Positions 33,556 to 61,849 of a stretch of DNA of 64,000 nt are shown here, in pieces; within the stretch, counting starts at the first letter, position 1; every line of letters starts with the position of its first letter. The notes beneath the pieces were generated by a model. The model saw only the letters and a program-made list of their open reading frames with translations, searched no databases and was not told where the DNA came from. Both the position numbers and the translations under genes were made by a program. This stretch comes from Chthoniobacterales bacterium. Lineage in GTDB: Bacteria > Verrucomicrobiota > Verrucomicrobiia > Chthoniobacterales > UBA6821. The stretch is from positions 13,434-77,433 of the forward strand of contig DAISZK010000004.1 in NCBI GenBank assembly GCA_036824855.1. Direction: 5' to 3'.

Positions 33556-36435
33556 TCACGGCACTGATGGCCTGCGAGGCGCATCTTTTACAGGAAGAGA
33601 CAAAACGGCTGGTCGAAGTCCCTGGCCCGAAGCAATGAGCTCAATCGTACCTGCCCCCCCGGTTGACTGGACAATGACGAGTGCCTTGCCGTTGAAAAGA
33701 TGTCGGGTCGGTTCAATATCCGACTCGTGGGAACTCGGGTCGCCATTGCCCACCCCAAGGATCTTTCCCGGTCCCTTGATTGCAAATGAGATGCCGTTGG
33801 TTGCGGTGGGAACGAAACGCCCTTTTTCATCCAGAGAGTCAACAGCGATGAGGCTCGTCTCCTCACCGTCTCCCTTCAATTCCTGACAATTGGCATGAAG
33901 GCGGATCTGCAAGGGTTCGCCGGTGGTCTCAATCTTCTCGCTTACAAGGAACTTCCCGTTTTTGTAGCCCTTGGCCTCGATTGATCCCGGCACGTAGGGA
34001 ATGTGATCCCATTCAGCATGGGAATTTTGTTGCACTTTTACTCTACCATGGGAGACCCCATTGACAAAGAGCTCCACTTCATCGCAATTACTCTCTACCC
34101 AAAGATCAATCGGAGCTTCTGAGACCGAAACTGTCACGGAGTCTTTCGGGGCGACGACTGCATTGGTTGAAGCAGCTGAGGTCAGGGCCGAATCAGGATG
34201 CGTGGGATCATATTGAGGAACTGCCGCAGTTCCGCTGAGCTCCGGTTTTACGGTTACCGGATCCAGATCCACCGTGATGGAATTCGTTCCGTTGACAGCA
34301 ATGGTTTTTGAAGCCACCAGTGTGTTGCCCTGATAAGCCTTCACGATCAATTCCCCTGATTGGTACAGAAAGGGGGGCCACTCCGTTCCCTCCGGCGAGA
34401 GCGTGCTCTTTCCCTTGTTCCTCACGCCGTTAAAAGTCACTTCTGCCTTTTCAGAGTTGCCCGAGACCTTGACTCGGATTGTCCGGTGTTCAACGCGGTC
34501 CCAATTCCAATGAGGGTAAAGATGGAGCAGGGGTTCGGGCGTCCACCATGCCTTGTAGTAATAATAAATATCCTTGGGAAATACGCAGGTGTCGACGATA
34601 CCGAAATGAGAGCTGACATTGGGCCATTTGTAAGGAGTCGGTTCCCCGCGATAATCGAAACCGGTCCAAGCAAAGGCTCCGCCGACCCAAGGTCGGGTCT
34701 GGTAAAACCTCCACCATTCCTCGGCCGAGGCGCCCCACCCCGGGGTGTTTGCATGGGAATCGTAGGATGATTTGTAGGCGCGGGCAAAGTCGTCGAAATA
34801 CTCGCCGCGAGTCGTCACCGTGCTTGCCTCCTCGGAACCGATGAAGCGTCTCTCGGGATGCTCGGCGTGGAACTTGTCCATCGCTCCCCAAAGGCCGAGG
34901 TAGTTCATGCCGACGACATCGACCACGGTCACAAAACCCTTTTTGTCCTCGGCGTGATTCTGGGCGATGGTGCAGAGGCGGGAGGGGTCGAGTTTGTGTG
35001 CCAGATCCTGCGTCACCTTGATGATATCCGCCCCAGTTTGGGTTCCCTGGATCTTCATCTCTTCGTTGCCGAGCGACCAGATCACGATGCTTGGATGGTT
35101 CCTGTCGCGACGGATCATCGTCTCCAGATCGGAGAGTGGTTCGGGGTACTTGCCAAAGCGCCGTGTCTCATCCATGACCATCATTCCCTGACGGTCACAC
35201 TCGTCGAGCAGCTCGGTATTAGGGGGGTTATGAGACATCCTCCACCCGTCGGCCCCCATCTCACGCATGATCGCGACACGATCTTTCTCGATGCTATCGG
35301 GAACTGCTACCCCAACCCCGGCGAAATCCTGGTGATTGCAAACCCCCTTGATGAATCGGTGCTGGCCGTTAAGGCTGAATCCTTTCTGGGGATCAAAGGT
35401 CACGGTCCGGATCCCGAAGGGAGTCTCGTAGAGATCTGAGACCACCCCATTCGTCTCGATACGTGAGATCGCCTTGTAGAGCGTTGGAGACTCGGGTGAC
35501 CAGAGCTTGGAATCTGCGACCTGAAGGTTCTGGGTGACTACCAGATGCTGGCCCGATGCTGTCTGGAAGGGCGCGGCCGTCTTGGCGACTTCGTTGCCTG
35601 TGTCATCCAGGATCTTCGTGACCAAGGTTCCCGAGGCTTCCTTGTCTCCGTTATTCTCCAAGGTGGTCTCGACCGTCAACGTTGCATCCTTGCCTGAGAG
35701 AACACTGGTCACATAGGTCCCCCACTGGGCCACATGAAGGGGTGATGTCTTTTGGAGCCAGACGTGCCGGTAGATTCCGGCTCCCTCGTAGAACCATCCC
35801 TCGTTCGCAGAGGCATCGGTGCGAACGACCAGTGTGTTCTTTCCACCGAAACGTGCATACGGAGTGAGGTCGTAGACGAAGCTGGTGTAGCCGCTTGGCT
35901 TACGACCCAGACAATGTCCGTTGAACCAGACAATGGAGTTGCGGTAGGCACCGTCAAACTGCACCGTGATTTTTTTTCCCTGATCGGCGGATGGAAGTTC
36001 GAAGGTTCTCCGGTACCAACCGATAGCGGATCCATCCTTGGCATCGAGATGGCGGCTTCCCTTTCCATTGTTATCCTTCTCCCCGAAAGATTGCTCAATT
36101 GCGTAGTCGTGAGGCAGATTCAATATCCGCCAAGCGCTGTCATCAAATTCGGGTTTTACAAAAGCCAGTCCGGCACCAGTGTTTTCCTTCATCACATCCG
36201 GCAAGTTCTTACGCATTGAAGTGTCCTTGGCCTCGGAATCTTCGCCTTGCTTCATAAGATCGCTCTCCTTGCCAAGAAAGTCGAGAGTCTGACCGACATC
36301 AACAGGATCGCCCTGATAGAAGCGCCAATCCGAATCCATCAGTAGTTTTTGACGGGGAGACTCGGCTGGATCCGCAACCAGTATACCGATGACCATTGAT
36401 GAAAAGATTGTAAAAAGAAGATTCTGTTTGTTCAT
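33556..36435 (-). CDS. GH2 beta-galactosidase-like glycosidase, secreted
   Basis: GH2 motifs WRILNLPHDYAIEQ, WFNGHCLGRKPSGYTSF, RDRNHPSIVIWSLGNEE (acid/base Glu) and FIGSEEAST, plus C-terminal Ig-like domains. I prefer ATG 36435 (MNKQNLLFTIFSSMVIGILVA). The track start at 36465 is GTG. Confidence 0.85.
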   Translation of the reverse strand: MNKQNLLFTIFSSMVIGILVADPAESPRQKLLMDSDWRFYQGDPVDVGQTLDFLGKESDLMKQGEDSEAKDTSMRKNLPDVMKENTGAGLAFVKPEFDDSAWRILNLPHDYAIEQSFGEKDNNGKGSRHLDAKDGSAIGWYRRTFELPSADQGKKITVQFDGAYRNSIVWFNGHCLGRKPSGYTSFVYDLTPYARFGGKNTLVVRTDASANEGWFYEGAGIYRHVWLQKTSPLHVAQWGTYVTSVLSGKDATLTVETTLENNGDKEASGTLVTKILDDTGNEVAKTAAPFQTASGQHLVVTQNLQVADSKLWSPESPTLYKAISRIETNGVVSDLYETPFGIRTVTFDPQKGFSLNGQHRFIKGVCNHQDFAGVGVAVPDSIEKDRVAIMREMGADGWRMSHNPPNTELLDECDRQGMMVMDETRRFGKYPEPLSDLETMIRRDRNHPSIVIWSLGNEEMKIQGTQTGADIIKVTQDLAHKLDPSRLCTIAQNHAEDKKGFVTVVDVVGMNYLGLWGAMDKFHAEHPERRFIGSEEASTVTTRGEYFDDFARAYKSSYDSHANTPGWGASAEEWWRFYQTRPWVGGAFAWTGFDYRGEPTPYKWPNVSSHFGIVDTCVFPKDIYYYYKAWWTPEPLLHLYPHWNWDRVEHRTIRVKVSGNSEKAEVTFNGVRNKGKSTLSPEGTEWPPFLYQSGELIVKAYQGNTLVASKTIAVNGTNSITVDLDPVTVKPELSGTAAVPQYDPTHPDSALTSAASTNAVVAPKDSVTVSVSEAPIDLWVESNCDEVELFVNGVSHGRVKVQQNSHAEWDHIPYVPGSIEAKGYKNGKFLVSEKIETTGEPLQIRLHANCQELKGDGEETSLIAVDSLDEKGRFVPTATNGISFAIKGPGKILGVGNGDPSSHESDIEPTRHLFNGKALVIVQSTGGAGTIELIASGQGLRPAVLSLPVKDAPRRPSVP

Positions 36436-36483
36436 GGTTAGTTTGAAAAAATCATGCATGGACACCTGTCGTGTGGATTCGCT

Positions 36484-37782
36484 CTATTTGGCGGTGAAGA
36501 TAACGCTGAAAGGTGCCGGTTCCGGGTTGCGTGAGTATTCCGCATGCGCTTTGGGATCGTATGGGGGAATGGGGATTCCCTTACGGAACTGCACCAGAGG
36601 GAGGCGTGGAACTTGCGGCGTCTCGGTTCTCACGGGATAGGGCTGTTTGGGGAATCGCTCCTGAACCAAAAGAATCTGGTGGTAAAGGCCTCCGGTATCC
36701 CCGATCAGGATATCGATGGGATAACTCTTACCTCGTTCCACCCGAAACCAAGAGCCTTTGGCACCCATGTATCCCGGCATGAATTGCATGTCGTCAGTCT
36801 TCTTATCGGTTGGAGAAGCGCCCAAAGGTTTCATCTCAGGGCGCACGAATTTTTGTACATCCGGCGGGGCGCCTCTGATGATTCCGTCGGAAGCTAGAAC
36901 CGGCTTACCATCAAATCGGACAGCCATATAATCGTCGCAACTGGCCCAGAAGCGGTATTCGCCATCATCGGGGGCCACAACCTGTCCGGTGTAGTGGATG
37001 ACCCAGTGAGGGTTCTTTGTTTCCTTTTCCACCCCGAAGGCTTTCGCAGCACCCGAACTACCGCTACACGGCATATACATCTGCACAGCCAGCATGGAAT
37101 CGGGGGCACAATAATAACGCTTCAATACTTCATCGTCCCAATTCTTTGCGAGGAATTCCCCAATCACCTTGTAATAACTCTGTGAAGCTAAGCCTTCATT
37201 GGCAGCAGGCGCAGGCTTGTGATCCGCCATCTGCTTGAGGTCATAAAAACGCCCCACCAGTCCTCCGTGACTAACTCCCTTGAAGCCGAAAGCGGTCAGC
37301 CCTGCCAAGGGCATCGAGGCCATCCCCCCTGCTCCAGCACCCCCAGCCCCGCCACCAAGTCCAGCCGATCCCAAGCCACTCATGACTGAAGCCATGACAT
37401 CGGGGCCCGTGGAAGCATTCATATCCATGGCTGGAAGAGCGATTGAGGCATTGGCCGCCGTGGAAGCGATCCTCTTGGAAATGGCGGGTGCAGCGGCTGT
37501 AGTTTTCTTTGATGGCTTGACCTTATGCTCGGTGGCACCAGCGGCACTCGGCGGCGGAGCGGTAAATTTCATCTTCTCCTTGCGACTCTGGACCACCTGC
37601 ACGACCAGCACGGTGGCTCCGCCCAGCAGAATCACATGGGCCAAAATACTCAGAACGAGGAAACTCCCGCTCCATGCCATCCAGCGCTGCCAGAGATTCT
37701 TCTTAATTGGTTGCGGTTCCTCAGGAGCACGATGAGGCTGATGGACGGATTGAGGTGTCTCGGGATATTGTTCCTCGATCAC
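36484..37782 (-). CDS. TonB-like membrane-anchored protein with C-terminal PA14-like domain (no recognisable TonB_C domain)
   Basis: 432-aa ORF (GTG start, 4 nt after the exbD stop). Basic N-terminus, then one TM helix WSGSFLVLSILAHVILLGGATVLVV containing S-x-x-x-H (SILAH, nt 37636-37650), as in the TonB TM helix. Pro/Ala/Lys linker FTAPPPSAAGATEHKVKPSKKTTAAAPA. Gly/Ala run GLGSAGLGGGAGGAGAGG. PA14-like segment GLVGRFYD...HWVIHYTGQVVAPDDGEYRFWASCDDYMAVRFDGKPV. Confidence 0.6.
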   Translation of the reverse strand: MIEEQYPETPQSVHQPHRAPEEPQPIKKNLWQRWMAWSGSFLVLSILAHVILLGGATVLVVQVVQSRKEKMKFTAPPPSAAGATEHKVKPSKKTTAAAPAISKRIASTAANASIALPAMDMNASTGPDVMASVMSGLGSAGLGGGAGGAGAGGMASMPLAGLTAFGFKGVSHGGLVGRFYDLKQMADHKPAPAANEGLASQSYYKVIGEFLAKNWDDEVLKRYYCAPDSMLAVQMYMPCSGSSGAAKAFGVEKETKNPHWVIHYTGQVVAPDDGEYRFWASCDDYMAVRFDGKPVLASDGIIRGAPPDVQKFVRPEMKPLGASPTDKKTDDMQFMPGYMGAKGSWFRVERGKSYPIDILIGDTGGLYHQILLVQERFPKQPYPVRTETPQVPRLPLVQFRKGIPIPPYDPKAHAEYSRNPEPAPFSVIFTAK

Positions 37783-37786
37783 TAGA

Positions 37787-38227
37787 TCACTCCTCCTCGA
37801 CGTTAAAAGTTACGTTGGTGATTTTGGCAGCTGCCAGCGCATTGAGGACATCGATCGTCCTGCTGTATTTGGCATGGGCGTCACTGACGATCGTGACAAT
37901 GGCTGGTTGGTGAGCGTTGTCGGCGTTTTCCTTGAGGCGCATCAATGTGGCACGAAGTTGAGGCAGATCAGCGCTCTCGGGAGAGTCAAACGGCTCATCA
38001 TTAAGAGAGACTTCCCCCTCGTCGGAGATCGAGATGATTGTCTCATCATTGAACTCGGTGGCTGATGAGGACTCAGCCGATCCCGGAAGTTTGGTCGAGA
38101 GTTCGTTTTCAACCTTCACGGCGCCAGCCATGACCATGAAAAAGAGCATGATCACGAACACGACATCGACCATCGGGGCGATCTGGAACCCCATTGTCCC
38201 ATCATCCTCGTTAACAAAAGATTTCAT
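37787..38227 (-). CDS. exbD: ExbD/TolR family biopolymer transport protein
   Basis: 146-aa ORF with the family N-terminus GFQIAPMVDVVFVIMLFFMV and a periplasmic domain of typical size. Confidence 0.85.
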   Translation of the reverse strand: MKSFVNEDDGTMGFQIAPMVDVVFVIMLFFMVMAGAVKVENELSTKLPGSAESSSATEFNDETIISISDEGEVSLNDEPFDSPESADLPQLRATLMRLKENADNAHQPAIVTIVSDAHAKYSRTIDVLNALAAAKITNVTFNVEEE

Positions 38228-38236
38228 GATCCAGGA

Positions 38237-38704
38237 TTAGTCGTGGTTGACCGCGGAAAAGGAGATGTCGGAAATACCTGCCTCGGCGGCCGCATTCATT
38301 GCCTGAGAAACAAAAAGCGCCGGCACTTCTCGGTCACCGCGTATGACAATCCGAAATTCGGGGTTCTGGCCTGGTTTGGAAGCCGCAACCTTGTCACCGT
38401 ATGCCTTGGCGGCCTTGAAGGGTTCCACCAGATCCGCTCCCTTGGTGTAGATACGATCCTGAAAATTAAAAACGCTCCTGTTAGCTGAGGGATCCCATCG
38501 GACGTTGACGATCGCCTCGGAGCGGGAATCGTCTTTCTTTGCAGCCTCGGCAGCAATCGGGAGTTTGATGGTCTTATCGATATTGAGGACCTGGGCCGAG
38601 GTGATGACCATGAAGAAGATCAGGATGACCAGTAGCACATCAACCATCGGGGCGATCTGAAAATCAGGCTCGCCCTTTTCTAGTCCTCCTCCTCCGCCGG
38701 CCAT
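38237..38704 (-). CDS. exbD: ExbD/TolR family biopolymer transport protein (second copy)
   Basis: 155-aa ORF. DFQIAPMVDVLLVILIFFMVITS, then a periplasmic domain (IVIRGDREVPALFVSQAMNAAAEAGI). Confidence 0.85.
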   Translation of the reverse strand: MAGGGGGLEKGEPDFQIAPMVDVLLVILIFFMVITSAQVLNIDKTIKLPIAAEAAKKDDSRSEAIVNVRWDPSANRSVFNFQDRIYTKGADLVEPFKAAKAYGDKVAASKPGQNPEFRIVIRGDREVPALFVSQAMNAAAEAGISDISFSAVNHD

Positions 38705-38723
38705 CGTCTTTTACCGGTTTGGG

Positions 38724-39569
38724 TTAAGCTTCGGTCACTTGACCCTGCTCATGGGAAGCGATCCCCTCCGCAACAACCTCTTCGTGATGATGTACCAACC
38801 AGTTTGGAACGTTGGCATAAATTTCCTCGCCACTGATGTGAACCCCTTCGAGTGCCTCGTAGGGCATCTTACGGAAAAGCACGTTGATGATGTCCTGGAT
38901 ATGGTGCATGGCCGTGGTGGAACGACTGCGGAGAAAATAGAACATTCCAAAAGCCGGAATGGCGATGACGAGACCGCTGGCCGTGGCGACCAGCACCTCG
39001 CCGATGGCCCCCGAGAGGCTGGAGGGATCACCGATTCCGGAACTCCCCAGAGTGCTGAAAGCCTTGATCATACCCGTAACGGTTCCAAGCAACCCGATCA
39101 TCGGGGTAACGACACCTATCACCGAGAGGTAATTGATCTGGGTACTCATGGAGGCGCTCTCCTTGTGCATTTCGGAAATCATCCCTTCCTCAACCATGGT
39201 CTTTCCATCGCCCAGGAGTGAGATGCCGACCCTGAGGACATTGGTCATCGGGGATTTATTGTCGCGGCAGAATGTGTAGGCGCCGACATAGTCGCCCTGC
39301 TGGAACAGGCGCTTCACTTCGGCCTCGTAAGCGGGGGGGGAGGTTTTTTTGATCGAGGTATTCCTAACTCCGTCGGTTGATAGATAGACGGTCAGCACTG
39401 ACATGATGCCGATGGGGAACATTACCCAACCACCCTCGACAAGCGTCTCGAGTAATGACTTGGAATGGGGCTTGGCATCTTTTTTAGCCTCTTCGGCGGA
39501 GGCAGAAGCGATGCCCAGACAGAGGAGTGCGGCAAGGATAAGCAGGAGGTGTGGGTGGCGTTTGTTCAT
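38724..39569 (-). CDS. exbB: MotA/TolQ/ExbB proton-channel protein with N-terminal signal-peptide extension
   Basis: 281-aa ORF. Three TM helices in the family pattern: GWVMFPIGIMSVLTVYL, LSVIGVVTPMIGLLGTVTGMIKAF and AIGEVLVATASGLVIAIPAFGMFYFLR. Confidence 0.85.
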   Translation of the reverse strand: MNKRHPHLLLILAALLCLGIASASAEEAKKDAKPHSKSLLETLVEGGWVMFPIGIMSVLTVYLSTDGVRNTSIKKTSPPAYEAEVKRLFQQGDYVGAYTFCRDNKSPMTNVLRVGISLLGDGKTMVEEGMISEMHKESASMSTQINYLSVIGVVTPMIGLLGTVTGMIKAFSTLGSSGIGDPSSLSGAIGEVLVATASGLVIAIPAFGMFYFLRSRSTTAMHHIQDIINVLFRKMPYEALEGVHISGEEIYANVPNWLVHHHEEVVAEGIASHEQGQVTEA

Positions 39570-39613
39570 GAGGTGGGAGGAATGTCGTTAATTTAGGGTT
39601 GAGGAGGTTGAAA

Positions 39614-40444
39614 TCAAGGATGGGCTAGGATCTCGGTTTTCTTTTTTGCCATCGGAACTTGCGGGGAATCAGGCCAGCCACTGACAATGTCAGCATAACT
39701 CTGCGCCGCACGTTTCTCGTCCTTGAGTCCCATGTAAGCATCAGCGGCTCCTGCAAGGGCAGGAGGCTGCAGTAATGTCACCGAGGGATAAAACACCTTG
39801 ATGGTGAGGAAGGCACGCAGAGCAGCGGGATAATCTTTTTTCTGAAGAAGTGCTTTTCCAAGCGCGAGTTGAGCAAGCGGAGAGCCTTGATCCCCACCCA
39901 GTCTCGGCAATGCTTTGGCCTCAAGCGCTACAGCATTTAGATCAGATGTGGCCAGTGGGGAAAAGAGTGTGCCGGCCTTGGAGAGGGATTCCGCAGAAGG
40001 ACTCTTGATGGCGCCGATTTGGCGAGCCAAGTCGGCGCACTCGCTATCCTTGCCGATAGAGGCGAGCGCCAAAAGACGCAACCGGGCCATTTCAAGCCAC
40101 CAGGATCCCGGCACATCCTTGAGATCACCCTGCTTGGAGACATAGTCATCTGTCAGGCTCAGGACTTCGGTGGCATTCCCCTTTAAAGCGGCAGTAATGG
40201 CTTTTGCTAGTTCCGGAGGCTCAGCGAAATTGACCTTGGCAATTCGCGCCAAAGGCAGCCCCATTTCCACGGCACTGGTACCACCCTCCATGCTCACCTT
40301 GACCATGATCATATCACGGGAGCGTCTGATGGTGGAGCTATTGTAGACCTGGCCGTCGGTGGTCGTGATCTCCTCTGCAGATGCGATCGCTGCCAGCGCA
40401 AGTGCCAGCGTCGTCAGAGCCATTCTTGAGAATCGGAAGCTCAT
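39614..40444 (-). CDS. Secreted TPR-like protein
   Basis: 276-aa ORF, signal peptide MALTTLALALAAIASA. C-terminal TPR-like helices LAQLALGKALLQKKDYPAALRAFLTI and AGAADAYMGLKDEKRAAQSYADIV. ATG overlaps the upstream TPR stop (ATGA 40441-40444). Confidence 0.55.
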   Translation of the reverse strand: MSFRFSRMALTTLALALAAIASAEEITTTDGQVYNSSTIRRSRDMIMVKVSMEGGTSAVEMGLPLARIAKVNFAEPPELAKAITAALKGNATEVLSLTDDYVSKQGDLKDVPGSWWLEMARLRLLALASIGKDSECADLARQIGAIKSPSAESLSKAGTLFSPLATSDLNAVALEAKALPRLGGDQGSPLAQLALGKALLQKKDYPAALRAFLTIKVFYPSVTLLQPPALAGAADAYMGLKDEKRAAQSYADIVSGWPDSPQVPMAKKKTEILAHP

Positions 40445-43400
40445 GGTTTAGCAGGTGTTTTGGTGTCACTGGGGGACGCCGTGGTGGGTGAAGACGTTGC
40501 CGTTGGAGTAGCAGAGGCTGCCGGTTCCTGTGGAAGCGACTCGAGTTTTTTACGCGCCTGATCTGCGAGTGGTGAGGCGGCGAGACGAGGTTTGGAAAGC
40601 ATGTCTTTGAGATTCTTTGCAGCGTCGCCGGGCTTGCCGATTTTCACAAAGGCGTCGGCAGCTTTCAAATAGGCAGGGATGACGACCGAGGGGTAGCGCT
40701 GGTAAGCGACATAGACCCGCTGGTAATACTGCAGGGCGGCGTCAGGCTTGCCTCGTTTTTCCTCCAACTCTCCAAGCGACATGAGTGCCTTGGCAGTAAT
40801 CTCGCCTCGCCAATCCTTGGTGGCCGCCACCTGCTCGAAGATCTTCTTGGCATCATCAAGCTTGCCCAGAGCAAGTAAGGCAGATCCCTTTCCATAGGTA
40901 ATGTCGGCGAGTTTGGCGTCGGCGTTTGCTTTTTCGACTGCATCGTCAAACCACTTGATAGCCTCGGTTGGTTGGTTGCGAGCCAACGCAGTCTCCCCCA
41001 TCCCGCAGTAGGCGTATTCGAGCAAGTCGCTTTTGGGGAAGGACTCCATCAACTCCTTGAAGAATGCCTCTGCCTTGTCGGCCTCACCCCGCTGAAGGGC
41101 GATTTGACCGCACTCCGAAAGAAGCATGGCGCTGAGTTGATCGGCCGGAAAGTCCTTGTAGATGGAAGCCATCAGTTCTTTCTGCCGATCAGGCCTCTTG
41201 GTGAAGCCGGCAAGCTGGCCAAGGGCAAATCTCAATCGTGCTTTGTCAAGAGGCATGGCTCCGGCATTGGATTCGTTCAGATACTTCGCAAAGTCACCGT
41301 CGGCATCATAGGGTGGAAGCGGCGTCGGAGAGGGGCGGGGCGCAGGAGTTGCTCCCGAGTCGGCCGCCGGTGCATTCGTGACTCCTTGCACGGAGACAGG
41401 CGCGTTTTCTTTGGGAATCAGGGGTGGACGGGGTCTCTTGGAGCATGACTGGGCTAGCTGGGTCAGAAGCATTTCGACGGCATCCTGACGACGGTCGTTG
41501 ATGTTTTTGAGGATGTTCTCGGCAAGATACTTTTTTGCCTCCTCGGGCTTACCCTGTTTAATTTTCGCCTTGGATACCCAGTAAACGGCAGCCACTGCGG
41601 CGGGGTGCTTGGGATGTTGATCTGCAAAACGACCGAACATTTCAGCAATATTATCCCAGTCGTTGAGCTTCTGATACTGCTTGTTGGCCTCAAAAAGAGA
41701 GTATTTAAGCAGTTCATCACTCTCGGCGTATTTAAGCGAATCACGATAGGCGGCCGCAGACTCGGTGGTCATCTCCTTTGCCGCATAGGCATCTCCCTTC
41801 AATGAAAGAATCTCGCCCTGCACCGCCTCTCCTTGGTGCTTCTTTAGCCACTCGTCGCAGAGTCTGATCACATCGTCGTATTTGTTGGCGGCTTGATAGC
41901 AGAGAGCAATGCGGTAGCCGGCATCACCTGCGAAGATTCCTTCTGGAAATTTCTTCACATAATCCTGAAATCCTTCCAAAGCCTTGCCGTAGTCACCCAA
42001 CTGGAAGGAGCAGAGCGGAATCCGATAAGTGCACTCCTCGGCAAACTTTCCCGTGGGAAACTTGGTGAGGTACTTCTTGTAATCCTCGATCGCCTCCTTG
42101 TATTTCCCAGGATTGGGAGCTTTTGCATCGGCGGCTTGCGCGAATTCCGCATTGGCCAATAGGAACTGCATGTCGGCGGCCAAAACAGAATTATCTCCCT
42201 TTTCCATGAGGGTTCCGAAGACAGTCTCGGCTTTTGGAAAGTCACCGGCCTCCAGGGCTACCGCGCCCTTAAGATATCCGGCCTGGGAGGCATATTTACC
42301 AGTGGGATACTCCGATAAATATCGATCCAGAACAGGCACGGCTTCGTCAGGTCTGCCAAGCGAGCAGAATGCGGAACCAATGCTGAAAAGACCGTCCTCC
42401 CGCACTTTCGGATCCTTGGAGGAGTCAAGGAGGCTCTCCCAAATCAGGATAGTCTCCCATTTCTGGTCGAGCTCGTCATAGGCCTTGGCTTGGCGCAGGC
42501 GAACAGGCACCACGGTGTCGGGCATTTTTTCGAACTGATCGAGGACAGTCTGAAGTTGCTTTTGATCTTCCTTGAGACGGGCATTGGTTGCGTTGATCTC
42601 CATGAAGGACTTGGGGTTCTGCTGAAGACTGGCCGTGTTATCGCTTATAGTTTTCCCGAGTGCTTCTATCCTCTTTTTCTGGAGATCGATGACCACTTGT
42701 TTTGGACGAACGATCGCATACATCCGCAGAGCCTTCTGCCGATCTCCCTTGCCCAGAAGACCATCGCCGATCCGCACCGCCAGAATGTCTAGCTGGAGAG
42801 GATTGTCGATCCGGTCACTCGCAGCCTGAAGCTGATCAAGAAGTTTGAGCGCATCATCGAGATGCCCTTGCTTGGACTCGATTTCAACCATCGCCATGGC
42901 AGCCTGGACAGTGAGGTCATCCTTGATCCCTCCGTCAATCATGGGACGGAGGGCTGTAAGAGCCTCCTCAGGTTTTCCGGACTCGGCAAGCATCGACGCT
43001 TGGGCAAGCCGGGCCCTGGCAGCCAGGTCACCCGTTCCCTCCGAAGCCTTCTTGAGTGTTTGCTCTGCTTCCGCCTTGCGACCTGTCTGAGTCTGGATCT
43101 GGGATAAAGCAATCAAGGCCTTGGTCTTGTTTTTTCCATCCGGGAATTCCTTGAGGCAGCGATTGTAATACTCCTCGGCCTTCGGGAGATTCTTCTGATT
43201 GAAGTACGTGGAGGCGAGTGTGAAGAGGATCGTCTCAAGAGCCTCGCCGGTCGGTCCTTCCCCGAGAACCGCCTCAAAACTTTTTGCCGCACTAGCATAG
43301 TCACCGGCTTGGAAGGCGCTGGCACCCGCTTTAAAAAGATCCTCGGGCGAGGTTGAAGCATCCGCTGCCACAGAAAAACGCATGAAGCCTGAGAGGCTTA

Positions 43401-43479
43401 CCACCAATATACAAAATATGGGCAGTCGGGGGCTACTCATGTGGCTAAAATATGTACTACACCTCTTTTTACACTGCAT
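40441..43479 (-). CDS. Large secreted/anchored tetratricopeptide-repeat protein
   Basis: 1012-aa ORF with more than 15 visible TPR units (e.g. AGDYASAAKSFEAVL, QKNLPKAEEYYNRCLKEFP, LGDYGKALEGFQDYVKKFP, ANKYDDVIRLCDEWLKKH). N-terminal hydrophobic segment LPIFCILVVSLSGFMRFSVAADA. S/T/P/A-rich tail. Alternative ATG at 43440. Confidence 0.8.
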   Translation of the reverse strand: MQCKKRCSTYFSHMSSPRLPIFCILVVSLSGFMRFSVAADASTSPEDLFKAGASAFQAGDYASAAKSFEAVLGEGPTGEALETILFTLASTYFNQKNLPKAEEYYNRCLKEFPDGKNKTKALIALSQIQTQTGRKAEAEQTLKKASEGTGDLAARARLAQASMLAESGKPEEALTALRPMIDGGIKDDLTVQAAMAMVEIESKQGHLDDALKLLDQLQAASDRIDNPLQLDILAVRIGDGLLGKGDRQKALRMYAIVRPKQVVIDLQKKRIEALGKTISDNTASLQQNPKSFMEINATNARLKEDQKQLQTVLDQFEKMPDTVVPVRLRQAKAYDELDQKWETILIWESLLDSSKDPKVREDGLFSIGSAFCSLGRPDEAVPVLDRYLSEYPTGKYASQAGYLKGAVALEAGDFPKAETVFGTLMEKGDNSVLAADMQFLLANAEFAQAADAKAPNPGKYKEAIEDYKKYLTKFPTGKFAEECTYRIPLCSFQLGDYGKALEGFQDYVKKFPEGIFAGDAGYRIALCYQAANKYDDVIRLCDEWLKKHQGEAVQGEILSLKGDAYAAKEMTTESAAAYRDSLKYAESDELLKYSLFEANKQYQKLNDWDNIAEMFGRFADQHPKHPAAVAAVYWVSKAKIKQGKPEEAKKYLAENILKNINDRRQDAVEMLLTQLAQSCSKRPRPPLIPKENAPVSVQGVTNAPAADSGATPAPRPSPTPLPPYDADGDFAKYLNESNAGAMPLDKARLRFALGQLAGFTKRPDRQKELMASIYKDFPADQLSAMLLSECGQIALQRGEADKAEAFFKELMESFPKSDLLEYAYCGMGETALARNQPTEAIKWFDDAVEKANADAKLADITYGKGSALLALGKLDDAKKIFEQVAATKDWRGEITAKALMSLGELEEKRGKPDAALQYYQRVYVAYQRYPSVVIPAYLKAADAFVKIGKPGDAAKNLKDMLSKPRLAASPLADQARKKLESLPQEPAASATPTATSSPTTASPSDTKTPAKP

Positions 43480-43508: not shown

Positions 43509-46500
43509 TTAGCCTCCTGATCTTTTGAAATCGACCCGGGTGCGGTGGTCGGGATTGGAGGAGTTGAAAGTGATGGTGTCCTTCACCCCATTCTTGAGAT
43601 CGATGGTCACCTGGGTGTGATCCTTATTCCAGATCGTTTCTGGAAGCTGCTCTCCCGTACGGAAGGGGAAAAGGAGTACCTTATACTTGGGCTCCATCAC
43701 CTGATTGCGGGTTATAAAGAGGCGACGGATGTCACCGTTGGTGGTGTCACTGCTCCCCGATTGTTTATGAACCTCAATTACAGGGTCCTTCTTCGGATCA
43801 GCCGTTTCGGAAAGATCCCGGACCAGGAGCCTGGGAAGACCGGCCTTATTGGGATCGTCGGCCGGCGCACTGTCCAATGGCGCGTGAAGCAAAATCGCCT
43901 CCGAAACAGTGGCTCCGGGCTCCGCATCAAGATCGGAAGGGATCTTTTTTCCCTCGCTATCAGTGAAGAGACTCGGCGGCCCGAACATCGTTGAACAATT
44001 CATCTGCCAGCGATAGTTCCGCGGCGTACCGTCCTTGTTGATATCGTCAACAATGAGTGCGTAGGGACGCTTTCCGCGGACAAAGAGAACCGTGCGGTAG
44101 GCATACTCGACGGGATTGTAATTCGTCGTGAGTTTCATCGGGGAATTCAGGTCGAACACGGCATCCGGATTCTTGGCGATGGTTGCCTCGTAGAAGCCGG
44201 GATACATGAAATCTCTGCGGCGCAGGGTGGTCTCCACCTGATTGTCGCCGTAACAGTAGGAATAGGCCGCCGCATTGTCCCCGGCCATGACCACGCAGGA
44301 CTTGTCGGGGGTTTCGGTAACCTTGAAGAGTTTTCCGGGAGGCGTGGGGAAGCAATGCTTGTAATCGGATCCCTGAGGGATTGCATTCGGCCCCTCACCC
44401 ATGAATCCCTGGGTTAGCACGTCATTCGTGTACCGAGGATCCTGAATCAGCACCTCGGATTGCCAGGTACTGTCGGTCACATGGTAGCCGGGAGCAAAAC
44501 TCCAGGGACGCCCTAGCGCAAAGAAGGAGAAGTTGCCCTTCTCGGCATGCATGTGTCCGGCACCATACCACCCCTCGTCGAAGTCGAGTTTCATGGCCTC
44601 CTCATCCCAACCCGTGCGGCAGACAACCACTCCCATCTGTGGATCCACCTTGGTGAGGACCGGGTTTTTCAGTCGAGCGACATCCTCCAGCGTGGTCGGT
44701 TTACCATTAATCCCCGGATCGAGGCCAAACAGCGTCTGAATAAACGGATTGAAGCCGAGGCCCGGGGCATTCCCCGCATAGATGTAATCCACGGCCGGAT
44801 CATCGGGGTACATGTATTTCATCATCACGACATGGTTCTGGCGGTAATCGCCGCCGCCGTCGTGGTGGTCGTAGAGAAAGTAATGGGAGCTGTAATTCTC
44901 CGATTTATTCTCCGCCGGAGCCTGATAGCAGGAGTAGAGGAGTTGGAGGACCGTGTTGTAAAAGAGTGAGGTGACAAATTGGTTCTCAGCACCATGACGG
45001 GCATAGGCGACCGGGGTCGGCCAGAGGCCCCAGGCGCTGAATCCGTAATAGGCTTCCCTGTTCGCCGTGAACCCCCATGGAGATACATAACCGTCGTCAT
45101 TGAACCAAATGGCCCGCTGCAGATTATCGATTGCCACCTTACGGGCAAAGGGCCACGAGCAAGCTACCGAGTAGGGATGACTCTCAAGGCATCCCCCTTG
45201 GGTATCCGCGCCGGCGGGATGCACCCAATCGTATGCTTTGTAGTCCGAGGAAGTGAGGTGGTCATCCGGAACAGGAAGATCAGTGAACGCTTTGACCACC
45301 TCTGGCGAGACCCCGCCCTCCTCACCTTCAAGAACCATGGCGTTAAGCACCTTTTCCTCCTCAATGTTCATGAAGTCTCCGTTTTGCTCATAGCCTCGCA
45401 GGAGTCGTCCGTGGATTCCGGAAGCGAAAAAGACCACACGGGCTCCGGTGGTCCGGCCGACGCTTTGGGCATAGAGGAAATCGCGGATCGCCCGCTTCTC
45501 AGGTGACGTCATCCACGATGCCGTGAAATCGTAGGCAAGCCCGAGCGAACTCATGTTCCAGTAAACGCCCCCGGGTTCGTTTAAGCCGTCCGGAAAAATC
45601 GGGTAATCCTTGTGAAAGGCCCCTGTTTTGGAGTCCCAGCATCCGTGCAGGAGGGTATAGCCAATGGAGGCGGTGATCTTGCCCAATCGGCGAAGGCGAT
45701 CCTTATTCGCAGCGGGTACCTGATCATGGGGGATCCTGGGATCTTGATCAATCCAGGCCACCAGCGTGGCATCCCGGAGTTGGTTGCAATATTCGTTGAA
45801 ATGGTTTCTCGCATCGCTCCAATCGGGCCCCTTGTCTCCCGGTTTGGATGGAATCCCCATGGTCAGGTCTGGCGCCGCGCCTTGGAATCCGGAATCCGCG
45901 AATTTGACAAGCTGATCACTCAGCTTCAGGAAATCCGATCCCGGCTTGTCAAAGCGCTCCTCCGTCTCTTTGCGAAGTTTGGCAAGGCACATGGAGGCAA
46001 TTTTCCCGTGCTGGGTGCGCTCGCTCAGTTCCGGCCAGTCTTGGGCAGTGGTATAGAGCCTTGGATGACAATATGGCCCGGGATCCGGCGAAAGCGTCCT
46101 GACCGAGGGTGGTGGCAGAATGCCGGGGGATGGGCAAAGGGGATCCTCCTTGCCCTCGCTCACAATGGGGGAGCGGAAGTTCCAGACATTGATCCAGCAG
46201 TTGCGCGAGAGCGAGATCCCGTGGACAGAGTCCGCGACCGTCAAACGAACCTCAAAGATTCCCGCACCTATGATCGAAACCTTGGTGAAAGCGGCGTCGT
46301 TGGGACTAAAAGAAACGGGATTCGCCCTTCCCATGGTGGCTGCAAACGGACTGAGTCGCTCCTGAACCTCTTCCCAGGAATAATGCAGCACCGCATCCTT
46401 GGGAAATCCACGCGTGATGGCGGAAATGGAGGTCTGAACGGGAAGGTCGCCGTGATCAGGAAAAAGGATAGGATGTTCGATCGAGAATACCAGCGATGGC

Positions 46501-46847
46501 TCGGAGTCAGGACTCAGATCGTGTGCGATTTCACGCAAATCCACACCCGGGATCGGCTTGATATCGGAAAAGGAGAGATGAAAGGGACTCCCCGCACCAT
46601 GTTTGGCCAGGAATCCCTCACCGTCCCGTTGCAGCAGGCTGACTTTGGTGCCAGAGGATAGGGTCACAGACCCAATCTGCACGCCGTCCCGAAGGAGAGG
46701 GGCCTTGATGGAGGCAGCAAGTTCACACTCCACAGAGGCCCCCAACGAGATGCCCATGAGTGCAATCAGGATGAGGAACGATGCGATCGGGAGACGTGGC
46801 CGAGGGCGCAAAACGTAAGTCATGAGGGAGTTTGTTGGATTTAGCAT
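43509..46847 (-). CDS. Secreted heparinase II/III-like protein, paralogue E (N-terminal PKD-like extension)
   Basis: 1112-aa ORF. Motifs YCHPRLYTTAQDWPELSERTQHG, WYGAGHMHAEKGNFSFFALGRPW (H-x-H core), KRPYALIVDDINKDGTPRNYRW and YKVLLFPFRTGEQLPETIWN. PKD-like segment IFEVRLTVADSVHGISLSRNCWINV. Confidence 0.6.
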   Translation of the reverse strand: MLNPTNSLMTYVLRPRPRLPIASFLILIALMGISLGASVECELAASIKAPLLRDGVQIGSVTLSSGTKVSLLQRDGEGFLAKHGAGSPFHLSFSDIKPIPGVDLREIAHDLSPDSEPSLVFSIEHPILFPDHGDLPVQTSISAITRGFPKDAVLHYSWEEVQERLSPFAATMGRANPVSFSPNDAAFTKVSIIGAGIFEVRLTVADSVHGISLSRNCWINVWNFRSPIVSEGKEDPLCPSPGILPPPSVRTLSPDPGPYCHPRLYTTAQDWPELSERTQHGKIASMCLAKLRKETEERFDKPGSDFLKLSDQLVKFADSGFQGAAPDLTMGIPSKPGDKGPDWSDARNHFNEYCNQLRDATLVAWIDQDPRIPHDQVPAANKDRLRRLGKITASIGYTLLHGCWDSKTGAFHKDYPIFPDGLNEPGGVYWNMSSLGLAYDFTASWMTSPEKRAIRDFLYAQSVGRTTGARVVFFASGIHGRLLRGYEQNGDFMNIEEEKVLNAMVLEGEEGGVSPEVVKAFTDLPVPDDHLTSSDYKAYDWVHPAGADTQGGCLESHPYSVACSWPFARKVAIDNLQRAIWFNDDGYVSPWGFTANREAYYGFSAWGLWPTPVAYARHGAENQFVTSLFYNTVLQLLYSCYQAPAENKSENYSSHYFLYDHHDGGGDYRQNHVVMMKYMYPDDPAVDYIYAGNAPGLGFNPFIQTLFGLDPGINGKPTTLEDVARLKNPVLTKVDPQMGVVVCRTGWDEEAMKLDFDEGWYGAGHMHAEKGNFSFFALGRPWSFAPGYHVTDSTWQSEVLIQDPRYTNDVLTQGFMGEGPNAIPQGSDYKHCFPTPPGKLFKVTETPDKSCVVMAGDNAAAYSYCYGDNQVETTLRRRDFMYPGFYEATIAKNPDAVFDLNSPMKLTTNYNPVEYAYRTVLFVRGKRPYALIVDDINKDGTPRNYRWQMNCSTMFGPPSLFTDSEGKKIPSDLDAEPGATVSEAILLHAPLDSAPADDPNKAGLPRLLVRDLSETADPKKDPVIEVHKQSGSSDTTNGDIRRLFITRNQVMEPKYKVLLFPFRTGEQLPETIWNKDHTQVTIDLKNGVKDTITFNSSNPDHRTRVDFKRSGG

Positions 46848-48350: not shown

Positions 48351-48377
48351 GGCAGTAAGGTTTGCGGTGGAGGTATC

Positions 48378-49538: not shown

Positions 49539-49549
49539 GGCTAAGTGGG

Positions 49550-51196: not shown

Positions 51197-51252
51197 AGTG
51201 ATGGAGGAATGGGGGGGGTTACAGGACGTCGCCAATTAGTAGATATGACATG

Positions 51253-54624: not shown

Positions 54625-54716
54625 TTGTGAGTTATGAACGCTTGGGAAGTTGATGCGTTGGTTGCGCTGATTTTTCCGGGAGTTCCGTCAAAATGACACG
54701 TCAGTTCAAGAGACAA

Positions 54717-58931: not shown

Positions 58932-58932
58932 T

Positions 58933-61839: not shown

Positions 61840-61849
61840 GAGACGGGGA

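What the first reader, a model, noticed from the sequence alone, without database searches (positions are those of the whole stretch)
36484..43479. ExbB-ExbD-ExbD energiser whose TonB slot holds a TonB-like anchor tipped with a PA14 lectin-type domain, bracketed by two secreted TPR proteins and a GH2
Gene order on the minus strand is TPR(1012 aa), TPR-like(276 aa, ATGA overlap), exbB, exbD, exbD, 432-aa protein (4-nt gap), then GH2 (18-48 nt gap). The 432-aa protein sits where TonB normally sits. It has the TonB hallmarks: a basic N-terminus, one TM helix carrying S-x-x-x-H (SILAH, nt 37636-37650; compare TonB S16xxxH20, which couples to ExbB/ExbD), and a Pro/Ala/Lys-rich spacer. Its C-terminal about 250 aa look like a PA14 carbohydrate-binding beta-barrel (GLVGRFYD...HWVIHYTGQVVAPDDGEYRFWASCDDYMAVRFDGKPV) rather than a TonB_C domain. 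The window has about 25 secreted CAZymes but no TonB-dependent receptor and no SusC/D. My hypothesis is a proton-motive-force-driven periplasm-spanning device that engages glycans, or a glycosylated or unknown outer-membrane partner, instead of a TonB box. That could be an uncharacterised glycan-capture or uptake route in a PUL-like locus.
Basis: partly seen in the sequence, partly recalled or inferred. Interest (0 to 1): 0.72.

Follow-up and report, generated by a model that had tools for sequence, protein, structure and literature searches.

The report
Sugar-binding-tipped TonB-like motor protein cluster
A six-gene cluster conserved across Verrucomicrobia-type bacteria pairs a proton-driven membrane motor with an anchor protein whose tip is a sugar-binding (PA14) domain instead of the usual TonB head. 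This may be how these polysaccharide feeders, which lack the SusC/D importers, grab, import or sense glycans.

Summary
On the minus strand lie TPR(1012 aa)-TPR-like(276)-ExbB/TolQ-ExbD/TolR-ExbD/TolR-432-aa protein, with an ATGA overlap and a 4-nt junction. The 432-aa protein has a transmembrane helix carrying S45xxxH49. A sequence-conserved but structurally disordered linker of about 90 aa follows. The C-terminal domain folds as PA14 (Foldseek E 3e-7), and nothing matches TonB_C or TolA.

The six-gene module recurs in 28 loci from Verrucomicrobiota and Kiritimatiellota-like bacteria, even where the 432-aa protein is only about 28% identical. The family is large (1291 representative clusters) and includes about 30 orphan copies, some in tandem. 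In three loci the same slot holds variants with a cytoplasmic SAM domain or SAM plus Ser/Thr kinase, which places PA14 in the periplasm.

A 2025 paper describes the same operon type in PVC bacteria with a vWA head. By gene annotation only, the Akkermansia mucin-uptake locus MUL1 has the same gene content.

I read the protein as a new PA14-headed variant of the TonB/TolA force-transducer class. A role in glycan capture or import is plausible but unproven. CAZyme neighbours are lineage-specific, and the GH2 is not part of the conserved unit.

The parts
40441..43479 (-). Secreted TPR protein, 1012 aa, with signal peptide ...FSVA/ADAS. First gene of the conserved six-gene module. Candidate counterpart of Akkermansia Mul1A (not tested by sequence).
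   Evidence: Pfam TPR families, E down to 3e-36. NCBIfam tol_pal_ybgF-like repeats in 6 stretches. 63-89% identical and syntenic in L002, L004, L008, L009, L012, L014 and L055, and still present at 21-38% in distant loci. Signal peptide read directly from the sequence.
39614..40444 (-). Secreted TPR-like protein, 276 aa. Signal peptide, small beta domain (about residues 25-72), then a helical repeat region. Overlaps the upstream gene by ATGA.
   Evidence: Only weak Pfam TPR hits (E 1e-3). NCBIfam tol_pal_ybgF E 1e-6. ATGA overlap confirmed. Syntenic in all cluster loci. The single-sequence AF2 model has pLDDT 51, so only its secondary structure was used.
38724..39569 (-). MotA/TolQ/ExbB-family proton-channel subunit, 281 aa, with an N-terminal signal peptide.
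   Evidence: Pfam MotA_ExbB E 3.3e-25. Best PDB sequence matches are TolQ at 9e-11 and ExbB at 2e-8. 83-95% identical in related loci.
38237..38704 (-). First ExbD/TolR-family subunit, 155 aa. Keeps the transmembrane Asp (APMVDV).
   Evidence: Pfam ExbD E 9.7e-16. Matches TolR in the PDB at 1.6e-4. Only 40% identical to the second ExbD, and only over the N-terminal 60 aa, so the two form a heterologous pair.
37787..38227 (-). Second ExbD/TolR-family subunit, 146 aa. Keeps the transmembrane Asp. Its stop codon lies 4 nt before the start of the 432-aa gene.
   Evidence: Pfam ExbD E 9.9e-20. Junction TGA-tcta-GTG preceded by GGAGGA.
36484..37782 (-). 432-aa TonB/TolA-like force transducer with a PA14 head. 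The GTG start at 37782 is correct; the database version starting at M35 is too short.
   Evidence: Syntenic behind the motor in 28 loci. Residues 24-34 upstream of M35 are conserved, with W31, Q32, R33 and W34 invariant or nearly so. The family has 1291 representative clusters.
37585..37671 (-). Transmembrane helix (residues 38-66) carrying S45-x3-H49 (nt 37636-37650). This is the TonB/TolA motor-docking signature.
   Evidence: Among 329 family members, S45 is kept in 97% and H49 in 100% of ungapped sequences. AF2 predicts a helix over residues 30-70. Orphan copies keep S/T-x3-H.
37561..37575 (-). K70-M-K-F73-T: candidate 'motor box', the short segment after the helix that in TonB/TolA binds the ExbD/TolR dimer.
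   Evidence: F73 is conserved in 321 of 329 members and K70 in 286 of 329. It lies 21-28 residues after H49, the same spacing as the TonB segment QPISVTMV after H20 (E. coli sequence from memory). The motor-box concept is from PMC12204202. AF2 predicts no strand here, so this is an inference.
37297..37560 (-). Linker (residues 75-162), Ala/Gly/Ser-rich. Predicted disordered yet as conserved in sequence as the folded domain (motifs EHKV, KRI, LP).
   Evidence: pLDDT below 50 over residues 74-162. Mean column conservation is 0.38-0.62 per block of ten residues against 0.6-0.7 in the PA14 core. H86 is kept in 293, R104 in 293 and P117 in 321 of 329 members. Composition.
36487..37296 (-). PA14-fold periplasmic head (residues 163-432). 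It has a DcisD-type pair D283-D284 (nt 36931-36936), an acidic D362 (nt 36697-36699), and a hypervariable insert at residues 296-345.
   Evidence: Foldseek top 50 hits are all PA14-containing structures, with probability 1.0 and best E 2.6e-7. A profile alignment places the family DD on the DD of Epa9 'HADDFILFNF'. DD or DN occurs together with an acidic residue at 362 in 277 of 329 members; 44 lack both. Conservation is 0.08-0.23 over residues 301-340.
33556..36465 (-). GH2 glycosidase, 969 aa, 18 nt downstream with no terminator between. Probably co-transcribed here, but not part of the conserved module.
   Evidence: Pfam shows the full GH2 domain set. No terminator-like site in the gap. A GH2 follows the cluster only in L002.

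Best explanation
The 432-aa protein is a member of the TonB/TolA class of periplasmic force transducers in which the usual C-terminal head has been replaced by a PA14 lectin-type domain.

Proposed mechanism:

1. The ExbB/TolQ pentamer and a heterodimer of the two different ExbD/TolR proteins form a proton-driven motor in the inner membrane.
2. The transducer's transmembrane helix docks on the motor through S45/H49.
3. A short conserved segment just after the helix (KMKFT) is gripped by the ExbD periplasmic domains.
4. A flexible but conserved linker of about 90 residues, possibly held by the two secreted TPR proteins, carries the PA14 head across the periplasm.
5. The head, which keeps a Ca2+-type Asp-Asp sugar-binding signature, grips a carbohydrate. 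The ligand would be a glycan chain entering the periplasm or a glycosylated outer-envelope partner.
6. The motor pulls on it.

The six genes act as one module. Extra orphan PA14 transducers in the same genomes would share the motor, as TonB paralogues do.

The most likely physiological role is energised capture or import of glycans, as in the Akkermansia MUL1 locus.

What is shown: the domain architecture, topology, fold, motif conservation and synteny. What is inferred: motor docking, sugar binding, the pulling step and the uptake role.
For: **Architecture and fold**
- Transmembrane helix, disordered linker and PA14 fold; no TonB_C or TolA match anywhere.
- S45 is kept in 97% and H49 in 100% of 329 members. 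F73 and several linker motifs are nearly invariant.

**Synteny**
- The order TPR-TPR-ExbB-ExbD-ExbD-transducer is kept in L002, L004, L005, L008, L009, L012, L014, L016, L019, L021, L022, L035, L037, L038, L054-L057, L075 and L080. It is permuted but complete or nearly complete in L010, L011 and L027.
- It is kept even in a Kiritimatiellota-like lineage where ExbB is only 35% identical.
- The 4-nt junction suggests translational coupling.

**Topology**
- Variants with a cytoplasmic SAM domain or SAM plus Ser/Thr kinase on the N-terminal side occupy the same slot. PA14 must therefore be periplasmic.

**Different evolutionary rates**
- The motor proteins are 81-98% identical where the transducer is 43-55% identical.
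- A hypervariable insert lies next to the DD motif, as expected for a ligand-specific head.

**Sugar-site signature**
- DD/DN plus an acidic residue at position 362 is present in 84% of members, and the two features are lost together.
- The DD aligns with the Epa9 DcisD motif.

**Precedent**

**Link to glycan uptake**
- mul1A (Amuc_0544) is called a mucin transport gene. Nine CAZymes were associated with Mul1A.
- The A. muciniphila gene table lists Amuc_0543, Amuc_0544, a hypothetical gene, ExbD/TolR (Amuc_0546), a hypothetical gene (Amuc_0547) and MotA/TolQ/ExbB (Amuc_0548) consecutively. That is the gene content of the permuted order seen in L010 and L011.
- CAZyme or sulfatase genes directly flank the gene in the window and in L019, L021, L081 and L083.
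Against: - No outer-membrane partner or ligand is identified.
- CAZyme linkage is not general. In one large subfamily the cluster sits between a TetR-type regulator gene and BamD-like/LptE genes; in L022 it lies next to TamA/TamB.
- The 20 ORFs sampled around 12 orphan-copy loci include no glycoside hydrolase.
- About 15% of members, mostly one clade, lack the DD/acidic signature. Sugar binding therefore cannot be the universal function.
- The window protein's own Pfam PA14 score is just under threshold.
- Only the S and H of the four-residue SHLS motif are kept.
- AF2 predicts no strand at the proposed motor box.
- The motor is slightly closer to TolQ/TolR than to ExbB/ExbD.
- The Akkermansia link rests on product names and gene order only. 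The hypothetical gene in the slot there is regulated oppositely to its neighbours.
Confidence: 0.55

Rival explanations
1. This is a Tol-like envelope-maintenance system. The motor and transducer tether or remodel the outer membrane and cell wall. The PA14 head binds peptidoglycan glycan strands or a glycosylated envelope component. The CpoB-like TPR proteins coordinate wall synthesis. Nutrient uptake is not involved.
For: - The best NCBIfam and PDB matches of the motor are TolQ/TolR rather than ExbB/ExbD. The TPR proteins hit the tol_pal_ybgF (CpoB) model, with six stretches in the large one.
- The module appears once in every locus examined (copy number per genome was not counted). In several lineages it sits beside outer-membrane biogenesis genes: BamD-like plus LptE in L008, L009, L012 and L016, and TamA/TamB in L022.
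- Two orphan copies lie next to MurG-like genes and one next to MlaD.
- A canonical TonB exists in Chthoniobacter flavus, so this system need not do TonB's job.
Against: - No TolB or Pal gene lies in or next to any of the clusters seen.
- The preference for TolQ/R over ExbB/D is weak (9e-11 against 2e-8).
- Multiple orphan and tandem paralogues with hypervariable heads fit ligand diversity better than a single housekeeping target.
- If the cluster is the MUL1 counterpart, Akkermansia mutants are viable and specifically defective in mucin use.
Confidence: 0.2
2. This is a trans-envelope glycan sensor. PA14 detects a periplasmic or incoming glycan and the protein relays the signal inward, with the motor serving to probe or reset occupancy. 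The kinase-fused relatives would be the full signalling version and the window protein a reduced form.
For: - In L019 and L021 the same slot holds SAM plus Ser/Thr kinase plus transmembrane helix plus PA14. In L022 it holds SAM plus helix plus PA14.
- A single-pass membrane protein with an extracytoplasmic PA14 sensor has a precedent in the clostridial RsgI anti-sigma factors, which appear among the fold matches (6qdi and 6qe7).
- LacI or AraC regulators lie near several copies.
Against: - The window protein has only 37 cytoplasmic residues and no recognisable output domain.
- Most family members are of this short type.
- A sensor would not obviously need a conserved proton motor, two TPR proteins and a motor-docking histidine.
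Confidence: 0.15
3. The motor powers a surface machine rather than uptake. By analogy with Agl-Glt gliding or the GldLM motor of type IX secretion, it would drive display, movement or secretion of giant adhesins or pilus-like fibres.
For: - Orphan copies sit next to giant PATR autotransporter-type proteins in L018, L023 and L077.
- One orphan copy lies 1.2 kb upstream of a secretin/type II secretion/pseudopilin cluster in L082.
- PMC12204202 suggests a gliding-type role for the vWA-headed relatives.
Against: - These adjacencies were seen in at most four genomes, and PATR similarity was absent from the other loci.
- PATR genes are abundant in these phyla (from general knowledge, not measured here), so chance adjacency is likely.
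- No gliding or type IX secretion components are seen near the clusters.
Confidence: 0.07

Closest known systems
vWA-headed motor-driven force transducers of PVC bacteria (PMC12204202, Mol Biol Evol 2025)
   Same: [quoted passage not shown]
   Different: The head is a PA14 beta-barrel, not a vWA Rossmann-type fold. That paper does not mention PA14. Here there are two TPR genes. There are also many orphan and tandem paralogues and SAM/kinase-fused forms.
TonB (ExbB-ExbD-TonB system)
   Same: Position after exbB-exbD. N-in, C-out topology. S-x3-H in the helix. A conserved segment at the same distance after the histidine as TonB's ExbD-binding segment. Multiple paralogues per genome sharing one motor.
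   Different: No TonB_C domain. The linker is Ala/Gly/Ser-rich rather than Pro-rich. No TonB-dependent receptor lies in the window.
TolA (TolQ-TolR-TolA of Tol-Pal)
   Same: The motor is marginally closer to TolQ/TolR. CpoB-like TPR proteins are in the operon. The helix has the S-x3-H motif.
   Different: No TolA domain III and no long helical domain II. No tolB or pal is linked.
Akkermansia muciniphila mucin utilization locus MUL1 (Mul1A = Amuc_0544, Mul1B = Amuc_0543)
   Same: Two hypothetical (TPR-type, from memory) genes are contiguous with ExbD/TolR and MotA/TolQ/ExbB genes, with a further hypothetical gene in between. mul1A is required for mucin use and is described as a mucin transporter. 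It is associated with CAZymes.
   Different: Homology was not tested at sequence level because no Akkermansia sequence was obtainable. The genome scan, which used two peptide patterns specific to the Chthoniobacterales subfamily, returned no locus from Akkermansia. PMC13174399 reports no MUL1 synteny in aquatic Akkermansiaceae.
PA14 lectin domains of adhesins (MpIBP, Flo1/Flo5, Epa1/6/9)
   Same: The same fold. The Asp-Asp pair sits at the position of the Ca2+-binding DcisD motif, with an acidic residue where Flo5 has its second calcium ligand (mapped by eye).
   Different: Those are surface-exposed adhesin tips. This head is tethered to the inner membrane in the periplasm and coupled to a motor. 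Identity to them is 10-16%.
RsgI anti-sigma factors with PA14 sensor domains (Clostridia)
   Same: A single-pass membrane protein with an extracytoplasmic PA14 carbohydrate sensor (6qdi and 6qe7 among the fold hits).
   Different: No anti-sigma domain, a Gram-negative periplasmic setting, and a motor-docking helix.

Membership tests
TonB family | C-terminal TonB_C domain (PF03544) that binds a TonB box | tested here: not met
   No Pfam or NCBIfam hit. No PDB sequence hit. The Foldseek top 50 are all PA14 structures.
TonB family | N-terminal transmembrane helix with the SHLS motif (S-x3-H-x6-L-x3-S) | tested here: inconclusive
   S45 and H49 are present and conserved in 97% and 100% of members. 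The L and S positions are A56 and V60.
TonB family | Encoded with exbB-exbD | tested here: met
   The motor lies directly upstream in the window and in 28 loci.
TonB family | TonB-dependent outer-membrane receptor as partner | not testable with these tools
   None in the 64-kb window. The rest of the genome is not available.
TolA / Tol-Pal | TolA domain III and linkage to tolB-pal | tested here: not met
   No TolA hit. No TolB or Pal/OmpA gene in the clusters examined.
Non-TonB-headed motor-driven force transducers of PVC bacteria (PMC12204202) | [quoted passage not shown] | tested here: met
   H49 is invariant. KMKFT is conserved right after the helix. The linker (residues 75-162) is disordered. 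That KMKFT is the motor box is an inference.
Non-TonB-headed motor-driven force transducers of PVC bacteria (PMC12204202) | Operon: TPR gene, tolQ-like gene, two heterologous tolR-like genes, transducer | tested here: met
   The two ExbDs are alike only over their N-terminal 60 aa.
Non-TonB-headed motor-driven force transducers of PVC bacteria (PMC12204202) | vWA C-terminal domain | tested here: not met
   PA14 fold instead. I therefore file this as a new variant, not a member of the vWA family.
PA14 domain (PF07691 / GLEYA superfamily) | Pfam score at or above the gathering threshold | tested here: inconclusive
   The whole protein scores 22.6 bits against a cutoff of 24. The domain alone scores 24.0. 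Relatives score 29-35 bits. Five of 10 diverse members hit PA14.
PA14 domain (PF07691 / GLEYA superfamily) | PA14 beta-barrel fold | tested here: met
   Foldseek probability 1.0, E 2.6e-7 to 6m8m, target-normalised TM-score about 0.6, on a model region with pLDDT mostly above 85.
PA14 domain (PF07691 / GLEYA superfamily) | Ca2+-dependent sugar binding through the DcisD motif | not testable with these tools
   The sequence signature is present: D283-D284 aligned to the Epa9 DD, and an acidic residue at 362 that co-occurs with it. Binding itself needs an experiment.
Akkermansia MUL1 locus | Mul1A/Mul1B genes contiguous with ExbB/ExbD genes | tested here: inconclusive
   The annotated gene order matches. 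No sequences were available for comparison.
Akkermansia MUL1 locus | Required for mucin/glycan import | not testable with these tools
   Genetic evidence exists only for Akkermansia.

The most novel reading that the evidence does not exclude
The module is a proton-powered 'glycan winch'. The periplasmic PA14 lectin head grips polysaccharide chains as they thread through an outer-membrane channel, and the motor reels them in with no TonB box and no SusC/D. This would be the general route for 'selfish' polysaccharide uptake in Verrucomicrobiota and Kiritimatiellota. Arrays of orphan heads would give substrate range. The SAM/kinase-fused versions would act as force-dependent glycan receptors that report uptake to the cytoplasm.
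Probability: 0.2. Interest if true: 0.9.

Novelty: new variant of a known kind. Interest (0 to 1): 0.68.

Why it matters
Verrucomicrobiota and Kiritimatiellota are major degraders of complex and sulfated polysaccharides in lakes, oceans, soil and the gut. They lack the SusC/D importers of Bacteroidota. How they take glycans into the periplasm is an open question.

A conserved motor module whose force-transducing subunit ends in a lectin domain gives a concrete and testable candidate. It would also connect the genetically defined but mechanistically opaque Akkermansia MUL1 locus to a molecular mechanism.

Independently of the uptake question, the finding extends the TonB/TolA class. A third kind of head (PA14) joins the TonB_C/TolA-type head and the vWA head. 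Some transducers are fused to cytoplasmic SAM and Ser/Thr kinase domains, which suggests that motor-coupled transducers can also signal.

Tried and rejected
**TonB_C or TolA head: rejected.** No hit in Pfam, NCBIfam, PDB sequence search or Foldseek. Direct BLASTP against E. coli TonB (sequence from memory) found nothing.

**CAZyme neighbourhood as a defining property: rejected.** The GH2 follows the cluster only in the nearest relative. One subfamily has a housekeeping neighbourhood. The 20 ORFs sampled around 12 orphan-copy loci include no glycoside hydrolase.

**PATR autotransporters as the general outer-membrane partner: rejected as a general rule.** Similarity to them was found only in L018, L023, L032/L077 and weakly in L061 and L068.

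**Retrieving the Akkermansia MUL1 sequences or the original papers: failed.**
- Davey et al. 2023 and Hughes et al. 2025 are not held.
- The genome scan with subfamily-specific patterns returned only Chthoniobacterales-type loci.
- Two supplement searches found nothing.
- Only an annotation table was obtained.

**Other dead ends.**
It succeeded with A3.
- The single-sequence AF2 model of the 276-aa TPR-like protein had pLDDT 51, too low for a fold search.
- Promoter and terminator scans gave nothing above background in the intergenic gaps.
- The human-gut loci (L032-L034, L077, L078) are orphan copies that lack the helix histidine. They could not be assigned to Akkermansia.

Full report
**1. 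What is in the window**

Six genes lie head to tail on the minus strand:

- a 1012-aa TPR protein (40441-43479);
- a 276-aa TPR-like protein (39614-40444);
- a MotA/TolQ/ExbB protein (38724-39569);
- two ExbD/TolR proteins (38237-38704 and 37787-38227);
- a 432-aa protein (36484-37782).

A GH2 gene follows 18 nt downstream. The two TPR genes overlap by ATGA. The second ExbD gene ends TGA-tcta-GTG, so the 432-aa gene starts 4 nt later, behind a GGAGGA ribosome-binding site. No terminator-like site sits in the gaps.

Pfam confirms the motor and TPR assignments. NCBIfam and PDB sequence searches place the motor slightly nearer TolQ/TolR than ExbB/ExbD. The two ExbD proteins resemble each other only over the N-terminal 60 residues, and both keep the membrane Asp. 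Both TPR proteins and ExbB begin with signal peptides.

The nearest loci are from freshwater 'Spartobacteria'/Chthoniobacterales genomes assembled from metagenomes. L002 is 87-99% identical for the motor and TPR proteins. The window is therefore from a verrucomicrobium of that order.

**2. The 432-aa protein**

Pfam gives PA14 at 22.6 bits, just under the 24-bit cutoff, and nothing else of note. NCBIfam gives nothing.

An AlphaFold2 model built on 38 homologues shows three parts:

- a membrane helix over residues 30-70;
- a low-confidence stretch over residues 74-162;
- a confident beta-rich domain from residue 166 to the end.

Foldseek against the PDB returns only PA14-containing structures at the top. 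These are the Marinomonas ice-binding adhesin sugar domain (E 2.6e-7), yeast Flo and Candida Epa adhesins, PA14 inserts of GH3 and GH31 enzymes, and the PA14 sensors of RsgI anti-sigma factors. No TonB or TolA structure appears. A sequence profile finds nothing in the PDB at E up to 1.

A profile of the PA14 region alone finds only weak PA14 hits. It aligns the family's 'DD' with the 'HADDFILFNF' of Epa9. From established knowledge of Flo/Epa adhesins, that is the cis Asp-Asp pair that holds the sugar-binding calcium.

**3. Conservation**

I aligned 329 family members.

- S45 is kept in 97% and H49 in all ungapped sequences.
- F73, in the KMKFT segment just after the helix, is kept in 98%.
- H86, R104, I105, L116, P117, F165, G166 and Y180-D181-x-K-Q are nearly invariant.

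The linker that AlphaFold calls disordered is therefore about as conserved as the folded core. That points to binding partners.

D283 is kept in 86% and D284 in 78%, with Asn in a further 8%. Position 362 is acidic in 85%. These two features occur together in 277 sequences and are absent together in 44; only 8 are discordant. Most of the 44 belong to one clade of about 488 aa, so this reflects few evolutionary events.

Residues 301-340, just after the DD strand, are hypervariable (0.08-0.23). Across related loci the motor proteins are 81-98% identical while the transducer is 43-55% identical.

**4. Synteny**

The order TPR-TPR-ExbB-ExbD-ExbD-transducer is kept in the genome loci L002, L004, L005, L008, L009, L012 and L014. 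It is permuted to ExbB-ExbD-ExbD-transducer-TPR-TPR in L010 and L011. It recurs in L016, L019, L021 and L022 and in 14 metagenome loci.

One of these, L056, is a lineage where ExbB is only 35% identical and the transducer 28% identical. The same six ORFs are present there. The named relatives of its transducer are Pontiellaceae (Kiritimatiellota), at 41-45% identity.

In all, 28 loci have the motor next to the transducer. Roughly 30 further loci carry orphan copies with no motor within the available flank (L006, L018, L020, L023, L081-L083 and about 26 metagenome loci). Some are in tandem arrays of two or three.

Orphan copies keep S/T-x3-H. The exception is a human-gut group that lacks the histidine. 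The exhaustive profile search finds 1291 representative clusters, 469 of them below 1e-30.

**5. Fused variants and topology**

Some members carry a cytoplasmic SAM domain (about 520-560 aa), SAM plus a Ser/Thr kinase (about 790-810 aa), or a kinase alone (761 aa). In each case this lies in front of the same helix, linker and PA14.

In L019 and L021 the SAM-kinase form occupies the slot directly after the second ExbD. In L022 the SAM form does. Kinases work in the cytoplasm, so the N-terminus is inside and PA14 is periplasmic. This settles a topology that the charge distribution around the helix leaves ambiguous.

**6. Neighbourhoods**

The window is a pectin/rhamnogalacturonan-type CAZyme array. 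It holds GH28, three or four GH78, a GH141-like protein, GH43, GH2, two GH3, GH31, RhaA, RhaT and two LacI regulators. No TonB-dependent receptor or SusC/D is present.

CAZyme or sulfatase genes also flank the gene in L019, L021, L081 (Pontiella desulfatans, after GH95 and GH39) and L083.

In the 488-aa clade, however, the cluster sits between a TetR regulator and BamD-like/LptE genes. In L022 it lies beside TamA/TamB. I also scanned 20 ORFs flanking 12 metagenomic orphan-copy loci. Two of them proved to be family members, one with a SAM domain. The rest include a MurG-like gene twice, MlaD, trigger factor, regulators and several ORFs without a Pfam hit. None is a glycoside hydrolase.

The six genes are the conserved unit. 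The CAZyme setting is lineage-specific.

**7. Comparison with what is known**

[quoted passage not shown] They have a helix with the SHLS histidine, a disordered region with a 'motor box' strand, a domain II of about 100 residues and a vWA head. [quoted passage not shown] The present operon is of that type, with PA14 in place of vWA. The paper does not mention PA14.

KMKFT lies 21-28 residues after H49. The ExbD-binding segment of E. coli TonB lies 23-30 residues after H20 (TonB sequence from memory).

In Akkermansia muciniphila, mul1A is Amuc_0544 and is called a mucin transport gene. Mul1A was associated with nine CAZymes. A published gene table lists, in order:

- Amuc_0543 and Amuc_0544, both 'hypothetical';
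- an unnamed hypothetical gene;
- Amuc_0546, ExbD/TolR;
- Amuc_0547, hypothetical;
- Amuc_0548, MotA/TolQ/ExbB.

This is the gene content and order of the permuted form in L010 and L011. I could not obtain the sequences, so orthology is untested. The unnamed gene is regulated oppositely to its neighbours in that data set.

PMC13174399 states that MUL1 synteny is absent from aquatic Akkermansiaceae. If the link holds, the module would be far more widespread than that implies. Chthoniobacter flavus has a canonical TonB and one predicted receptor, so this system probably coexists with a normal Ton system.

**8. Interpretation**

I am fairly confident (about 0.8) that the protein is a motor-coupled force transducer of the TonB/TolA class with a PA14 head. 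Carbohydrate binding by the head is likely for the window protein, which keeps the calcium-site signature, but it is not universal in the family.

A role in glycan capture or import is the best single functional guess (about 0.4). It rests on the lectin head, the paralogue expansion with variable heads, the CAZyme settings in polysaccharide specialists and the probable MUL1 link.

The rivals are:

- a Tol-like envelope role (0.2);
- a sensing role suggested by the kinase fusions (0.15);
- a surface-machine role (0.07).

No outer-membrane partner is identified.

**9. Verdict**

This is a new variant of a known kind. Interest is moderately high. It offers a concrete candidate for SusC/D-independent glycan handling in PVC bacteria and widens the repertoire of motor-coupled transducers, but the function is not demonstrated.

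Noticed in passing
window 36484-37782 (minus strand): The public database version of this protein (P0001, 398 aa) starts at M35. Residues 24-34 upstream are conserved across homologues, and a GGAGGA site precedes the GTG at 37782. The deposited start is probably 34 codons too short.
   Followed up: yes
L019 9001-11379; L021 8001-10415; L022 8001-9623: In three loci the transducer slot after ExbB-ExbD-ExbD holds a protein with a cytoplasmic SAM domain, or SAM plus a Ser/Thr kinase, fused to the same helix, linker and PA14. I have not seen a motor-coupled transducer fused to a kinase described before.
   Followed up: partly
L025 9956-14315; also L031, L040, L043, L050, L051: Orphan PA14 transducers occur as tandem arrays of two or three paralogues, each with its own S-x3-H helix.
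   Followed up: partly
L077 6-11041; L018 1149-15159; L023 1-7021: Some orphan copies sit directly beside giant PATR-repeat proteins. The one in L077 is a 3192-aa autotransporter with a beta-barrel domain. These are possible partners or chance neighbours, seen in only three or four genomes.
   Followed up: partly
L082 9001-19146: In a Pontiellaceae genome an orphan copy lies 1.2 kb upstream of a secretin, type II secretion ATPase, platform protein and pseudopilin cluster. This is of note because the Akkermansia MUL2 locus is pilus-like.
   Followed up: no
L032-L034, L077, L078 (human-gut metagenome contigs): A divergent gut subgroup of the family keeps PA14 (29-35 bits in Pfam) but has no histidine in its membrane helix. 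It may have lost motor coupling. The organism was not identified (GC 50-53%).
   Followed up: partly
L008, L009, L012, L016 (downstream of the cluster); L022 9672-15841: In one clade the six-gene cluster is always followed by a BamD-like TPR gene and LptE. In another locus it lies beside TamA/TamB. Both are outer-membrane biogenesis neighbourhoods.
   Followed up: partly
window 3393-6113, 8367-10484, 22753-24384, 24396-27623, 27642-30338: Five large ORFs (543-1075 aa) inside the CAZyme array have no Pfam hit at E 0.01. They could be unclassified glycan-active or envelope proteins.
   Followed up: partly
window 14432-17125: A GH3 enzyme carries a canonical PA14 insert (67 bits). The window therefore holds both a textbook PA14 and the divergent one on the transducer.
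   Followed up: no
window 43509-46847; L014 1005-4280: The 1112-aa protein upstream of the cluster has only a weak heparinase II/III C-terminal hit (E 0.04). It is conserved in the same position in L014 (75% identity).
   Followed up: no
window 47103-63886: RhaA, RhaT, GH28, a GH141-like protein and three or four GH78 rhamnosidases (one fused to an esterase) point to rhamnogalacturonan/pectin as the substrate of this region.
   Followed up: no
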